UHGV virus genome: UHGV-0058544
Reading direction: 5' to 3' (one strand)
Source of the DNA: a virus
Length of the DNA stretch: 19,638 bases
Within the stretch, counting starts at the first letter, position 1. Each line of letters begins with the position of its first letter. This document shows positions 15,001-19,638 of the stretch, piece after piece. The position numbers were made by a program.

Positions 15001-18000
15001 GTTGGTACTGAACCACAATGAGTGCGATAGCTATCACGATAACTGTTGTATACACACAAATCTCCTTAGTTAGTAGCTATTTGGTAACCAAGGCAATAAA
15101 CAGCGGAGCAAGGATTGCAGATATCATGAGGGCGATAAGCCACTTCTGATTCTCGTCCATCTTATCTGCTAGGCGACGCTCCATTCCGTGCATGTCGCCA
15201 CGGATGCCAATCAACTCTTTTCTAGTTTCTGATATTAGCTTTTCTTGGTTGGCGGCAATCGTTTCAATGCGGGTCATTCTACTGTTCATATCTGATCCTC
15301 CTCCATTGCCACCTCCATGTGCTGGCTCTTCTGAGTCTTCAATTCCGATGGGGGCAAATTCGCTATTCGGAAAAGGATTGTCAGCATCGTAAGCCAACTT
15401 CAACTTAGACATTGCTGTTTTTCTCCCTTAGATACCAGCTTAACACAACACCTGTGTTGTACTGCATAATGTATCCGCAATGCTTGCAAATTACATGATA
15501 AGAGTAATTTATTGGGTTGAATGATTCATCTTCGTTTTTTATATATTCACCATAATGGGCATGCCTACCCATGATGTCTTTTCCATTATCCTGATTTACA
15601 AATTGAACTTGAGGGACAACCATTTCAGACTGCCCGCACATTGGGCATTCGTCTGGAACACCTTTAGCTCTCAAGAAAGAGTCGAGAACCTTTGTAGTTA
15701 TAGACGATAGCGCCTTGCGATATTCAGCCTCTCGCAGTTGATCGTCTGAGTATCCTGAATTGTCACTCATTTTTCATCCTTACCATACATGGTCTTTAGC
15801 GTCTCAACATCGCGTTCAAGATCTATCAATCGTGATGCTATAGTTGCAAGGTCTAGTGCTTGAATGTGTTTATTTTTTTCGGTCCACGCTTCAAGTGCCG
15901 CGACCATCTCAGCATTTAATGAACGAGAATTAGCCTCAGCCAGTTCAATAAGACGTTCCTTTATCTCTACAGGAAGCCTCAGATTCACTTGAGGGTTTTT
16001 GTACTTACGATCAGACATCGGCGCATCCTGAATAATTTTTTACCACAGGATATGTAGGTATCTATTGACTATCAATGCGTACCTAAATACTATGTATGCG
16101 TACCACATACAACGGAGGATGCAATGAAGGTAAAAACACTGCGTATGCCAGAGAAGCTAGAAAAAATTCTTGAAGAAAAAGCAAAGGAAGAGTGCCGCTC
16201 ATTCAGCGCAGAAGTAATTAAACGGGTGCTGGACAGCCTGAGGAGAGAGGGGATAACGGTGTGATTCGCTTGGATGCGGCAAAGAAATCAAAACAGTGAA
16301 GCCCCAACTGCGGGAACAGTCAGGGCTTCGGTATCGTAAAACCACGCATAGGAATTAACGACATGAAAAGTATAGCAACAGCAGTATCTACTATCAATGT
16401 ACCATTCCACGGCGCAGAGCTTTATGTTGTCAATCACAACGGCGAACCGTATACCCCAATGAAACCTATCGTTGAGGGAATGGGGCTAGACTGGAAATCT
16501 CAACATAAGAAGATTTCTCAACGCTTCTCGAAGGGTATGGTGGAAATCACCATACCTTCTGCCGGTGGTGTGCAAGCCATGATTTGTATGGCTTTACGAA
16601 AATTGGCAGCTTGGTTGAACAGCATCAGTCCTAACAAAGTCCGCCCTGAAATCCGCGACAAGGTAATCCAGTATCAGGAAGAGTGTGACGATGTGCTCTA
16701 CGACTACTGGACTAAAGGCCATGTAGTTAACCCACGCAAAGCTAAAAAGGCGTTGCCGGGTAAAATCACCACTGAACAGCAGGAAGCCATTAAACAACTC
16801 GTCATGAGTCGCGGTCAGTCTCTGCCAAAAGAAAAACAGGCGAAGGCGATGATCACCATGTGGTCGTCACTGAAATCCCATTTTGGATGTTCGTACAAAG
16901 AAATCAGTGAGGAGCAGTTTACCGAAGCACTATCACTTGCAGCTCGAGTTCCACTTGAAGGTGAGTTCATTGGCAAACAAGAGAAGAAAACCAGCGAGCT
17001 TTCTGCAAAAGAAGCAAACAGCCTTGTATGGTTATGGGATTATGCCAACCGTTCACAGGCATTATTCCGCGAACTGTATCCGGCATTAAAACAAATTCAA
17101 TCGAACTATTCCGGCAGATGCTACGACTACGGTCATGAATTCTCGTATGTTATCGGAATGGCGAGAGACGTTTTAATCAATCACACACGAGATGTTGATA
17201 TTAATGAGCCAGACGGACCAACGAATCTTTCCGCATGGATGAGACTTAAGAATAAAGAATTACCTCCTTCAGTACATAACTACTGACAGATAACCAACGC
17301 AACGACCCAGCTTCGGCTGGGTTTTTTTATGCCCAAAATTCACCGTAGCTACTCAGCGGCTATGGCCTTGAAAGATAGCACTACACAAAAAGTGTAGTGC
17401 AAAAAGCAAACAAATACTCACCGTAGCCATGCTGCGGCGATTCCTTGTATCTGGAGCAAATTAAATGACAGACATTACAGCCAATGTGATCGTATCGATG
17501 CCTTCGCAACTCTTCACTATGGCTCGTTCTTTTAAAGCCGTAGCTAATGGTAAAATTTATATCGGTAAAATTGACACTGATCCGGTAAATCCAGAAAACC
17601 AGATTCAGGTTTATGTGGAGAACGAAGACGGATCTCACGTTCCTGTTTCGCAACCAATCATCATTAACGCTGGCGGGTATCCTGTATATAACGGACAGAT
17701 TGCCAAGTTCGTTACTGTGCAAGGGCATTCTATGGCTGTTTATGATGCATATGGTGCGCAGCAGTTCTATTTTCCTAATGTGCTGAAGTATGACCCTGAT
17801 CAACTACGGCAGCAATTAGAAGACCCGGATGGAGCTAAAAAATATCCTGAATTGCAGATATCTCGGTGGAGGGACGATTGTGATGTAAGAGGGTGGGGGG
17901 CAAAAGGCGATGGTATAACAGATGATACATCTGCATTGATCTTGGCTGCAGAATATGCACGAGAATCATCCAGAACATTACGAGCGGAAGGTAATTTTAT

Positions 18001-19638
18001 TATTACGGAGACATTAAATCTTCGTAATGTCAGCCTAGAAATGACCAATGCTGTTTTTACCATATCCCACTCAGGGATAGGTATATTGCTTGGCGGGAAT
18101 GCATCAAACCCTAACAACCCAAGACAAAACTTCGGAACGATTATCAGAAATTCTGGTATTTCATCTGAAACGACACCGGATATTCGTATTATCGGGGCAA
18201 AAGGGCAGCATATTAACATTGAGCGTTGCGACTACTTACAGTTATATGCAAACTCTGATGATTCAGTATATGAAACAGATTATTCTATAGCCTACTCAAC
18301 CTTTAACCTGAAAAAGGTCGATACAATTCATTTTCTTGGTGTAGTTAGAGGTTGGATAAACGAAAACAAGTTTTACCTAAACAGGACAAATAATGTGATT
18401 ATTGCTGATAATCCGTATTCACATAATCACAACAAGTTTTTTGGTGGAACGATGGAGAATACTGGGGTTATTGATATTCAGCGTGGTAATAATAATCATT
18501 TTTACGGACTCCGTTTTGAGCGCAGACCAGACAACCCAGATGACACACAAAGAATTAATTTTGGTAGTTATACGTGGAATAATTCTGTTCAGGCATCATG
18601 GCTTAGCTTTTCTGCATATACCAATGAACCATATAACCCAAACAATCTTGTAACTGTCACTGATAATGGTAATGGAAATGCTGTATATCATATTCAGGAA
18701 GAACTAACTAATGAAGTGTCGCTTTTTTCAGTGAGTGAGAAAACGCCATTTTTATCAAGCGTTAATATGGGAAGTTCAGATACACCTGATTATGTTACAG
18801 ATGTAAAAAATGTGCGAAATTTAATTCATCTTGTTAATGGTAGTTTTGCTATTGGACGTAACTTCAGGACAATTTGGGAATCAGGTGATATAAGCGTCAG
18901 GAATGGCGATGTGTTTGCATTTACTTCTGATGTCAGCGCATTCCGCATAAGGGTTTATGGAATTGACGAGAATGGCAGTGTTATTACAAATGAGCCTGAA
19001 GGGATTGGTTTTCCAGGGGCTTCATGGGATGATGAAAACAGTCGTTTTACTACCCAGTCTAACATCGGTAATGCAAAGTTTAGGATAACCGACAAAGGAG
19101 GAGTAAAATCAATAAGGGTTGTCATTCTGTCGGGTGGTAATACATCTGGAATTACCTTCAAATATATCAGATTTACCGGAAGATATTATAAGGATAGTTC
19201 TGCGTATCCTCGAAGAAATATGGATGATCATAATATCCACAGGTCTGGTGCTGTGATGTTTGATTCATCACTTGATGTCAAAATGGAAAATATAGCATCA
19301 GGTGTTACCTGTTATGTAAAAGATGCATCTGATGTTAAGGTTAATATATTCAGAAATAGATACGTTGTTAAATCGGTGTCCGGAAATACTATATATGTGC
19401 GTAACCAGGATGAAATTTCATATTCTGGTCCTTATGATGACTTTAAAGTTGCATATACTAGCGGGGCAAAAAATATGATTTCTGATGTTTCAGGAATTTC
19501 ATCTAATGCAATAACGTTATCAGGTAGTGTTCCTTCTGAAATATCAGAAGGAAGCAATATTGATTTGATTAAAATATTAACGAAGTAGGATTAAATGCAT
19601 GGAATATAGAACCGGACATTTTATTGCAATTGATATAA

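What the first reader, a model, noticed from the sequence alone, without database searches (positions are those of the whole stretch)
17465..19588. Tailspike is a domain chimera: conserved head-binding domain joined to a divergent, AT-rich beta-helix receptor-binding domain
Seen in sequence: the first ~115 residues are near-identical to the P22 and HK620 tailspike head-binding domain, after which similarity to both ends (around [15 protein letters not shown], nt ~17800-17830) and the DNA becomes AT-rich. The downstream part has [16 protein letters not shown], typical of pectate-lyase-like beta-helix depolymerases. Inference: the receptor-binding module was exchanged horizontally, implying a host surface polysaccharide specificity different from P22 (endorhamnosidase) or HK620.
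Basis: partly seen in the sequence, partly recalled or inferred. Interest (0 to 1): 0.5.

Follow-up and report, generated by a model that had tools for sequence, protein, structure and literature searches.

The report
P22-type tailspike targeting chondroitin-like capsules
This is an ordinary modular phage tailspike, but its swapped-in receptor-binding part is an uncharacterised beta-helix enzyme that is found almost only in E. coli strains making a rare chondroitin-like (K4-type) capsule, so it is most likely a capsule depolymerase for that sugar coat.

Summary
ORF 17465-19588 (707 aa) has a P22-type head-binding domain (aa 1-113; 75% identical to P22, 91% to Sf6). Similarity to P22, Sf6 and HK620 ends at aa 113-118, and a low-GC (36.8%) distal part follows.

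The chimera has more than two pieces:
- a linker plus GAKGDGxTDDT cap motif (aa 114-158), shared with the CUS-3 K1 endosialidase tailspike and a K5-lyase tailspike;
- two beta-sandwich domains (aa 413-707).

The same distal module (99% identical) sits behind an unrelated anchor in a different prophage type. A 51% homologue follows a K5 lyase in a lytic Vectrevirus.

The main new result concerns specificity. DNA of this module occurs in 17 of 5426 complete E. coli genomes. Sixteen of those carry a rare group 2 capsule locus built around a KfoC-type chondroitin polymerase (about 70 genomes in all; Fisher p about 1e-30). Hosts with 99%-identical modules have different O-antigen loci.

The only characterised relative (30% identity) is the Pasteurella phage PHB02 depolymerase, specific for serogroup A capsule.

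Verdict: a new member of a known kind. It is probably a depolymerase for K4-like capsules. Whether it is a lyase or a hydrolase is undecided.

The parts
17465..19588 (+). Complete tailspike gene, 707 aa plus stop codon
   Evidence: Listed as an ORF. The exact protein is encoded on a gut-metagenome scaffold beside ybhB/bioA. E. coli 20AR0300 carries it at 99.1% DNA identity.
17465..17803 (+). Head-binding (particle-anchoring) domain, aa 1-113
   Evidence: Pfam PF09008 at E 3e-66, covering profile positions 1-113 of 113. PDB matches: Sf6 gp14 7sg7 at E 3e-64, P22 2vky at E 9e-51. Identity 91% to Sf6 and 75% to P22.
17804..17881 (+). Linker, aa 114-139 ([26 protein letters not shown]). It is shared with capsule-specific tailspikes but not with P22, Sf6 or HK620.
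   Evidence: CUS-3 endosialidase tailspike DNA is 90% identical through gene nt 470. PDB 9vvr, a K5-lyase-type tailspike, aligns here ([31 protein letters not shown]). The model predicts helices at aa 111-134.
17882..17938 (+). Beta-helix N-cap motif [19 protein letters not shown] (aa 140-158). The module-exchange junction zone lies inside it (gene nt 433-470, window 17897-17934).
   Evidence: Similarity to N1131 starts at gene nt 433 and similarity to CUS-3 ends at nt 470. The motif matches PF12708-type caps in GH55 enzymes, epimerases and tailspikes.
17897..18700 (+). Right-handed parallel beta-helix, the putative catalytic domain (aa ~145-412). Family-invariant residues: K246, Y277, E300, Y318, H320, N321, N323, E331, R350, E352, N373.
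18701..19585 (+). C-terminal region of two beta-sandwich domains (aa 413-707). It is the most divergent part between the two E. coli alleles (45% identity).
16363..17286 (+). Antirepressor (ant) gene just upstream, the usual P22 immI context for gene 9
   Evidence: Pfam P22_AR_N and P22_AR_C on the identical gene in L028. Annotated 'phage antirepressor Ant' in 20AR0300.
19599..19638 (+). Start of a 105-aa hydrophobic membrane ORF that follows the tailspike in all lysogens (cut by the window end)
   Evidence: L028:12135-12452. No Pfam family. Equivalent small ORFs lie after the tailspike.

Best explanation
The gene encodes the tailspike of a P22-like (Lederbergvirus) temperate phage. It is assembled from exchangeable modules.

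- Residues 1-113 anchor the trimer to the tail. This follows from homology to solved P22 and Sf6 structures.
- Residues 114-158 form a conserved linker and cap motif. This segment is also found in front of K1-endosialidase and K5-lyase modules. Its DNA conservation offers a site for homologous recombination, and the observed junctions fall at aa 145-157.
- Residues ~140-412 form a right-handed beta-helix. Conserved acidic, basic and aromatic residues recur at roughly one-rung spacing (K246, Y277, E300, Y318/H320/N321/N323, E331, R350/E352, N373).
- Residues 413-707 form two beta-sandwich domains.

Inferred function: the distal module binds and cleaves the group 2 capsule made by KfoC-type loci. 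These are K4-like loci, and the predicted backbone is chondroitin-like GlcA-GalNAc. Cleavage lets the phage tunnel through the capsule to the outer membrane, as CUS-3 does with the K1 capsule.

The allele in this window is seen only in hosts with the 'type A' variant of that locus (KfoC homologue 73-75% identical to K4 chondroitin polymerase, plus a pyruvyl-transferase-family gene).

Shown: the domain anatomy, the fold, the module exchange and the host-capsule association. Inferred: the substrate, enzymatic cleavage and its chemistry. A lyase is slightly favoured over a hydrolase.
For: Anatomy and fold.

Module exchange:
- The same RBD at 98.8% DNA identity sits behind an unrelated N-terminus in a BPP-1-like prophage at yfgI in N1131.
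- Allele 2 occurs on the P22 anchor, the BPP-1-like anchor (S87) and PF18668 anchors.
- A 51% homologue is the second tailspike of Vectrevirus PDP21P3, directly after a K5 lyase.

Capsule association:
- RBD DNA is present in exactly 17 of 5426 complete E. coli genomes.
- Their kps region 2 types are: type A in 20AR0300, N1131, EC11 and MS14385; type B in 9 genomes; true K4 in 23CRST013 and PEC011 (KfoC 100% identical to PDB 2z86); and a unique fourth kfoC-like locus in S87.
- That is 16 of 17 carriers, against about 70 of 5426 genomes overall. Fisher p is 1.6e-30, or 5e-15 if collapsed to 9 independent cases.

Not O-antigen: hosts of 99%-identical RBDs have an O13/O129/O135-type locus (20AR0300) and an O86-type locus with a broken wzy (N1131). 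Other carriers include O166:H15.

Homology to a tested capsule depolymerase: Pasteurella phage PHB02 gp17 (Dep-ORF8) matches at E 4e-62 and about 30% identity over aa ~135-707. It makes translucent spots on all 31 serogroup A strains tested and not on capsule-deficient mutants (PMC6090149). All invariant residues are conserved in it. By established knowledge, serogroup A capsule is hyaluronan, which differs from chondroitin only at C4 of the hexosamine.
Against: - No biochemical data exist for this protein or for any E. coli homologue.
- One carrier, W46, has a K2-like glycerophosphate capsule locus rather than a kfoC-type locus.
- Allele 2 occurs in hosts of three or four locus variants, so fine specificity is not resolved. 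The window's allele is seen in only two complete genomes plus one metagenome scaffold.
- The polymers made by the type A, type B and S87 loci have not been determined. 'Chondroitin-like' rests on the 54-76% identical polymerase plus kfoA- and kfoF-like genes.
- The genomes are not phylogenetically independent, so the p-value is optimistic.
- Identity to the Pasteurella enzyme is only 30%, and that enzyme's product chemistry was not determined.
- Pfam and PDB sequence searches recognise only the N-cap, so no catalytic family assignment is possible.
- This copy lies in a prophage with a 19.4-kb internal deletion, so it may not be assembled into virions without a helper.
Confidence: 0.75

Rival explanations
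1. The distal module is an O-antigen endoglycosidase, like the P22, Sf6 and HK620 tailspikes, specific for the O type of the lysogen.
For: Most characterised P22-like tailspikes cleave O-antigen. 20AR0300 has an O13/O129/O135-type locus, which by established knowledge is Shigella-flexneri-like. The fold class is the same as Sf6 and HK620.
Against: RBDs that are 99% identical occur in hosts with unrelated O loci: O13/O129/O135 and O86 with a wzy pseudogene. Allele 2 hosts include O166:H15 and strains from many unrelated sources. There is no sequence similarity to any O-antigen tailspike beyond aa 118. The association is with the K locus instead.
Confidence: 0.06
2. The module only binds the capsule or another receptor and has no depolymerase activity.
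Against: A set of charged, aromatic and His/Asn residues is invariant across 45 homologues down to 23% identity. The same residues are conserved in the experimentally active Pasteurella depolymerase. Every characterised tailspike of this architecture named in this analysis is an enzyme: the annotated CUS-3 endosialidase and, from general knowledge, P22, Sf6, HK620 and K5 lyase.
Confidence: 0.12
3. The co-occurrence with kfoC-type capsule loci reflects shared ancestry or co-transfer of the prophage and the K locus within a few lineages. The true receptor is something else, such as colanic acid, ECA or an outer-membrane protein.
For: Several carriers are near-duplicates (100117/100248, AST20/AST240). 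W46 is an exception to the association. A PHROG annotated for colanic acid degradation matches, but only over aa 1-205.
Against: Carriers span two unrelated prophage types and at least five insertion sites: sbcB/dacD, ybhB/bioA, torT, yfgI and intS. They also span four K-locus variants, several O types, and hosts from six or more countries and three animal species. The single genome with the unique S87 locus also carries the module. The PHROG match covers only the anchor and linker.
Confidence: 0.07

Closest known systems
CUS-3 endosialidase tailspike (P22-like K1-specific prophage of E. coli RS218; CP000711)
   Same: Both are temperate P22-like phages whose gene 9 carries a group 2 capsule-specific module rather than an O-antigen module. 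The head-binding domain, linker and cap motif are 90% identical at DNA level through gene nt 470. Both have the ant-tailspike context.
   Different: Beyond aa 157, CUS-3 continues into an endosialidase (982 aa in total). Here a beta-helix with two beta-sandwich domains follows. The predicted substrate is a K4-like capsule, not polysialic acid.
P22 gp9, Sf6 gp14 and HK620 gp9 tailspikes
   Different: No sequence similarity after aa 113-118. Those enzymes are O-antigen endoglycosidases, whereas this module tracks the capsule locus and not the O locus.
Pasteurella phage PHB02 tail fibre gp17 (Dep-ORF8)
   Same: The distal ~570 residues are homologous (E 4e-62) and all family-invariant residues are conserved. 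Dep-ORF8 has been shown experimentally to act on a capsule, serogroup A, with no effect on acapsular mutants.
   Different: Identity is only about 30%. It has a T7-like gp17 anchor and is 968 aa long. It belongs to a lytic Autographiviridae phage of another bacterial family. Its substrate is serogroup A capsule (hyaluronan by established knowledge). Its cleavage chemistry is unknown.
Second tailspike of Vectrevirus PDP21P3/PDP21P6 (OZ035769)
   Same: 51% identity over aa 134-702, covering both the beta-helix and the C-terminal domains. Same PHROG family (phrog_18162).
   Different: It has the short SP6/K1-5-type N-terminus, belongs to a lytic phage, and sits next to a K5 lyase. The record is unannotated and its host and specificity are not recorded.
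K5 lyase KflA (PDB 2x3h)
   Different: No sequence similarity beyond the cap motif. KflA has a C-terminal chaperone-type domain that is absent here.

Membership tests
P22-like tailspike (Pfam Head_binding PF09008) | N-terminal ~110-residue head-binding domain that matches the family profile above its cut-off | tested here: met
   221 bits against a cut-off of 24, covering profile 1-113 of 113. PDB matches to Sf6 and P22 at E 1e-50 to 1e-64.
P22-like tailspike (Pfam Head_binding PF09008) | Gene position at the end of the late operon of a P22-like genome, after the immI (arc/ant) genes | tested here: met
   The window carries gp10, the needle gene, gp7, gp20, gp16, arc, ant and then this gene. 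The same order is seen in lysogens.
Pectate-lyase-fold (right-handed parallel beta-helix) tailspike depolymerases | Right-handed parallel beta-helix fold in the central domain | tested here: met
Pectate-lyase-fold (right-handed parallel beta-helix) tailspike depolymerases | Pfam PF12708 (Pect-lyase_RHGA_epim) profile match above its cut-off | tested here: not met
   No PF12708 hit for this protein at E 0.1 or better. Homologue P0001 scores 20.9 bits, below the cut-off of 27, while the distant homologue P0040 passes at 49 bits. Only the N-cap motif is recognisable.
Pectate-lyase-fold (right-handed parallel beta-helix) tailspike depolymerases | Demonstrated polysaccharide cleavage | not testable with these tools
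   Activity has been shown only for the 30%-identical Pasteurella Dep-ORF8.
P22 endorhamnosidase, Sf6 or HK620 receptor modules | Sequence homology of the distal domain to these enzymes | tested here: not met
   Alignments end at aa 113-118.
Endosialidase tailspikes (CUS-3, K1F) | Beta-propeller sialidase domain and C-terminal intramolecular chaperone (Peptidase_S74, PF13884) | tested here: not met
   Similarity to CUS-3 ends at gene nt 470. There is no PF13884 or sialidase hit. The endoNF match is limited to the cap motif at E 0.08.
K4-like (KfoC-type) capsule specificity | Occurrence restricted to hosts that carry a kfoC-type kps region 2 | tested here: met
   16 of 17 carrier genomes, against about 70 of 5426 overall. 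W46 is the one exception.
K4-like (KfoC-type) capsule specificity | Binding or cleavage of the purified polysaccharide | not testable with these tools
   Requires expression of the protein and capsule preparations.

The most novel reading that the evidence does not exclude
The distal module may be the E. coli representative of an unclassified family of beta-helix enzymes that depolymerise glycosaminoglycan-type backbones (chondroitin or hyaluronan). The family would be shared by phages of K4-like-capsulated E. coli and of serogroup A Pasteurella. It has no detectable sequence relationship to any solved structure beyond the N-terminal cap motif. If so, it would define a new carbohydrate-active enzyme family, would probably also cut unsulfated mammalian chondroitin or hyaluronan, and would give typing and therapeutic reagents for K4-like ExPEC. 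In this reading, Vectrevirus PDP21P3 would be a dual heparosan/chondroitin-capsule phage.
Probability: 0.4. Interest if true: 0.6.

Novelty: new member of a known kind. Interest (0 to 1): 0.4.

Why it matters
Modular tailspikes are textbook, so the chimerism itself is ordinary. The value lies in the specificity prediction.

I found no description of a depolymerase for the E. coli K4 or K4-like (chondroitin-backbone) capsules in the searched literature. The module family is small: 437 clusters at 50% identity among 1.8 billion, and only about a dozen span the whole module.

A confirmed enzyme would be useful in several ways:
- as a K-typing and anti-capsule reagent for ExPEC lineages with these loci;
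- as a tool for microbial chondroitin production and analysis;
- possibly as a new glycosaminoglycan-degrading enzyme family.

The locus is also a clean natural example of one receptor module moving between P22-like, BPP-1-like and SP6-like phages through a conserved linker and cap motif.

Tried and rejected
- Literature searches for the Vectrevirus name ('PDP21P3', 'PDP21') gave nothing useful. Searches for K4/chondroitin capsule phage depolymerases found no such enzyme.
- The Gladstone 2026 K-locus paper describes 'K4-like loci' that all contain kfoD. The type A and type B loci here lack kfoD, so I could not assign KL numbers.
- I tested whether the two E. coli RBD alleles track K-locus subtypes. 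Allele 2 is 94-100% identical in type A, type B and true K4 hosts, so a strict allele-subtype match is rejected. Allele 1 is seen only in type A hosts, but in only 2 genomes.
- A profile search of PDB sequences with the family alignment recognised only the N-cap motif, so catalytic residues could not be transferred from a solved enzyme.
- The apparent match to PDB 9vvr (E 2e-15) turned out to be linker and cap only, not homology to the K5 lyase catalytic part.
- The scan of GTDB species genomes used a single peptide pattern. It returned only three loci ([Haemophilus] felis, Actinobacillus ureae, Pigmentiphaga), too few for a host-capsule analysis outside E. coli.
- I searched for the window's erf/coat deletion junction in complete E. 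coli genomes. None spans it.
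Full report
**Observation**

The region holds one intact ORF, 17465-19588 on the + strand, 707 aa. Pfam places a full-length Head_binding domain at aa 1-113 (E 3e-66). PDB sequence search aligns aa 1-118 to Sf6 gp14 (E 3e-64) and aa 2-116 to P22 gp9 (E 9e-51), and every alignment ends at YDPDQ. Identity over the domain is 91% to Sf6 and 75% to P22. HK620 is 91.4% identical at DNA level over gene nt 1-335.

No phage record covers more than 22% of the gene. Downstream composition falls to GC 36.8% (GC3 27.8%) for gene nt 433-2124, against 46.6% for the rest of the window. 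No 500-nt window elsewhere reaches the RBD mean. One correction is needed: the AT-rich part starts near window 17897, not 17800-17830, and the stretch between has normal GC.

**Anatomy**

An AlphaFold2 model of aa 110-707, built on 45 homologues, has mean pLDDT 88. It shows four parts:
- short helices at aa 111-134;
- a long run of beta-strand rungs from aa ~138 to ~409;
- a short helix;
- two beta-sandwich domains up to aa 707.

**Mosaic structure**

Three boundaries are visible.

1. Similarity to P22, Sf6 and HK620 ends at aa 113-118.
2. The CUS-3 K1 endosialidase tailspike stays 90% identical in DNA through gene nt 470 (aa 157). The same linker, [23 protein letters not shown], precedes a K5-lyase module in PDB 9vvr. 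In the other direction, E. coli N1131 has a 766-aa protein in a different, BPP-1-like prophage at yfgI. Its last 564 residues are 99% identical to this protein from gene nt 433 (aa 145) onward, behind an unrelated N-terminus. The exchange junction therefore lies inside the conserved cap motif, at aa 145-157.
3. A second E. coli allele (712-716 aa) is 85% identical in the beta-helix but only 45% identical in aa 413-707. DNA similarity stops at gene nt 1236-1295.

Relatives of the distal module sit behind PF09008, PF18668, PF12571 and PF27114 anchors. In Vectrevirus PDP21P3 a 598-aa homologue (51% identity over aa 134-702) lies directly after a K5 lyase tailspike (PDB 2x3h, E = 0). In the K1-5 phage, from memory, that position holds the endosialidase. 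Horizontal exchange of the receptor module is thus shown directly.

**Target of the module**

Megablast with the distal part alone finds it in exactly 17 of 5426 complete E. coli genomes.

- *Strain 20AR0300.* It has two P22-like prophages, both with this tailspike. Its O locus is O13/O129/O135-type. Its group 2 kps locus has a region 2 encoding a 4-epimerase, a KfoB-like protein, a 690-aa GT2, a pyruvyl-transferase-family protein, a UDP-glucose dehydrogenase and a 446-aa GT2.
- *The 690-aa GT2.* It is a homologue of the K4 chondroitin polymerase KfoC (PDB 2z86, E = 0, 75% identity).
- *Distribution of the locus.* This region 2 ('type A') and an 87%-identical variant without the pyruvyl-transferase gene ('type B') occur in only 45 genomes at 80% coverage or more. 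True K4, with KfoC 100% identical to 2z86, occurs in 20 genomes.
- *Carriers.* N1131, EC11 and MS14385 are type A. PS_131_S11, E200086, 100117, 100248, AST20, AST240, E-1246, fS10a and JNE070796 are type B. 23CRST013 and PEC011 are K4.
- *S87.* It has a fourth kfoC-like locus (polymerase 54-57% identical, no epimerase gene) that is unique in the collection.
- *W46.* It is the one exception, with a K2-like glycerophosphate locus.

So 16 of 17 carriers have a KfoC-type locus, against about 70 of 5426 genomes overall. Fisher p is 1.6e-30, or about 5e-15 if collapsed to nine independent cases.

The O loci of the two hosts with 99%-identical modules differ: O13/O129/O135 in 20AR0300 and O86 with a broken wzy in N1131. 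This argues against O-antigen specificity. Carriers involve two prophage types and at least five insertion sites. That makes simple co-inheritance unlikely.

**Link to a characterised enzyme**

The only experimentally studied relative is the tail fibre gp17 of Pasteurella phage PHB02, 968 aa. Its size matches the 109.6-kDa Dep-ORF8 of PMC6090149. Its distal ~600 residues match at E 4e-62 and about 30% identity. Recombinant Dep-ORF8 produced translucent spots on all 31 serogroup A strains tested and none on capsule-deficient mutants.

By established knowledge, serogroup A capsule is hyaluronan and K4 is fructosylated chondroitin. The two backbones differ only in the hexosamine C4 epimer.

The residues invariant across the 45-sequence alignment are all retained in the Pasteurella enzyme, the Vectrevirus homologue and allele 2. 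They are K246, Y277, E300, Y318, H320, N321, N323, E331, R350, E352 and N373. Their 21-31-residue spacing fits successive rungs of one face of the helix. That reading is an inference, since I could not inspect the coordinates.

**Mechanism**

The best-supported reading is a trimeric tailspike. Its N-terminal domain plugs into the P22-type tail. Its beta-helix binds and cleaves the chondroitin-like capsule of KfoC-type strains, clearing a path to the outer membrane. This parallels CUS-3 on K1 capsule.

Whether cleavage is by beta-elimination or hydrolysis cannot be decided here. Three points favour a lyase slightly:
- the substrate is a 4-linked uronic acid polymer;
- from general knowledge, the other phage enzymes known to act on glycosaminoglycan-like capsules (K5 lyase, streptococcal HylP) are lyases;

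Against this, three invariant glutamates would also suit a hydrolase.

**Novelty**

The chimeric architecture is well known. The module is not characterised, and no solved structure is related beyond the cap motif. The family is small: 437 representative clusters at E 1e-3 or better among 1.84 billion, 97 at E 1e-30 or better, and about a dozen spanning the whole module. I found no report of a K4 or chondroitin-capsule phage depolymerase. I therefore rate it a new member of a known kind, with a concrete and testable specificity prediction.

**Context and caveats**

The window is a deleted P22-like prophage. The integrase and early genes on the minus strand end in a truncated erf, which is fused at 5827/5828 to codon ~138 of the coat gene. 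About 19.4 kb is missing relative to phage N7. No complete E. coli genome spans this junction.

The exact tailspike protein is encoded on a 140-kb gut-metagenome scaffold, next to ybhB/bioA. This copy may therefore need a helper prophage to reach a virion. That does not affect the inferred molecular function.

The association statistics ignore phylogeny, the capsule structures of the type A, type B and S87 loci are unknown, and no biochemistry exists for any E. coli member.

Noticed in passing
window 1-7400 (junction at 5827/5828): The element is a deleted P22-like prophage. The integrase (50-1120, minus strand), Ead/Ea22 genes, ssb (5178-5651) and a truncated erf are fused directly to codon ~138 of the coat gene. 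About 19.4 kb is missing relative to phage N7: immunity, replication, lysis, terminase, portal and scaffold genes. No complete E. coli genome spans the junction.
   Followed up: partly
window 8823-9368: An HNH/NUMOD4 homing-endonuclease-like ORF (181 aa) lies in a low-GC island (GC about 37-39% in 500-nt windows over ~8400-9300) between the gp10 gene and the following tail genes. The 20AR0300 prophages have no matching DNA at window 8495-9358.
   Followed up: no
window 19599-19638 (continues beyond the window; L028:12135-12452): A 105-aa hydrophobic membrane protein gene starts 10 nt after the tailspike stop codon. It has no Pfam family, and a small ORF is conserved in this position in all lysogens examined. 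It could be a lysogenic-conversion or exclusion gene, by analogy with neuO next to the CUS-3 tailspike.
   Followed up: partly
L002:3870-7719 (Vectrevirus PDP21P3, OZ035769): This lytic phage carries a K5 lyase tailspike (PDB 2x3h, E = 0) directly followed by the 51% homologue of this receptor module. That suggests a dual-specificity phage for two glycosaminoglycan-like capsules.
   Followed up: partly
L001 and L012 (E. coli 20AR0300, NZ_CP195498.1): One strain carries two P22-like prophages, at sbcB/dacD and at ybhB/bioA. Both encode this tailspike (99-100% identical distal parts) despite different immunity and ant regions.
   Followed up: partly
L009, L010, L021 (kps loci of 20AR0300, PS_131_S11, S87): E. 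coli has at least three further KfoC-type capsule loci besides K4. Their polymerases are 75%, 76% and 57% identical to K4 chondroitin polymerase. One includes a pyruvyl-transferase-family gene. One lacks the 4-epimerase gene and so might make a GlcNAc-containing, hyaluronan-like polymer. None of the polymers has been determined.
   Followed up: partly
L019 (E. coli W46, NZ_CP163115.1 4236-4252 kb): This is the one carrier of the module (allele 2) with a non-KfoC capsule locus, a K2-like locus with a CDP-glycerol glycerophosphotransferase. It is either a true exception or a K-locus replacement after lysogeny.
   Followed up: no
window 14600-15300: A second low-GC island (about 38%) covers small minus-strand ORFs between gp16 and the arc/ant region. 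Their function was not examined.
   Followed up: no
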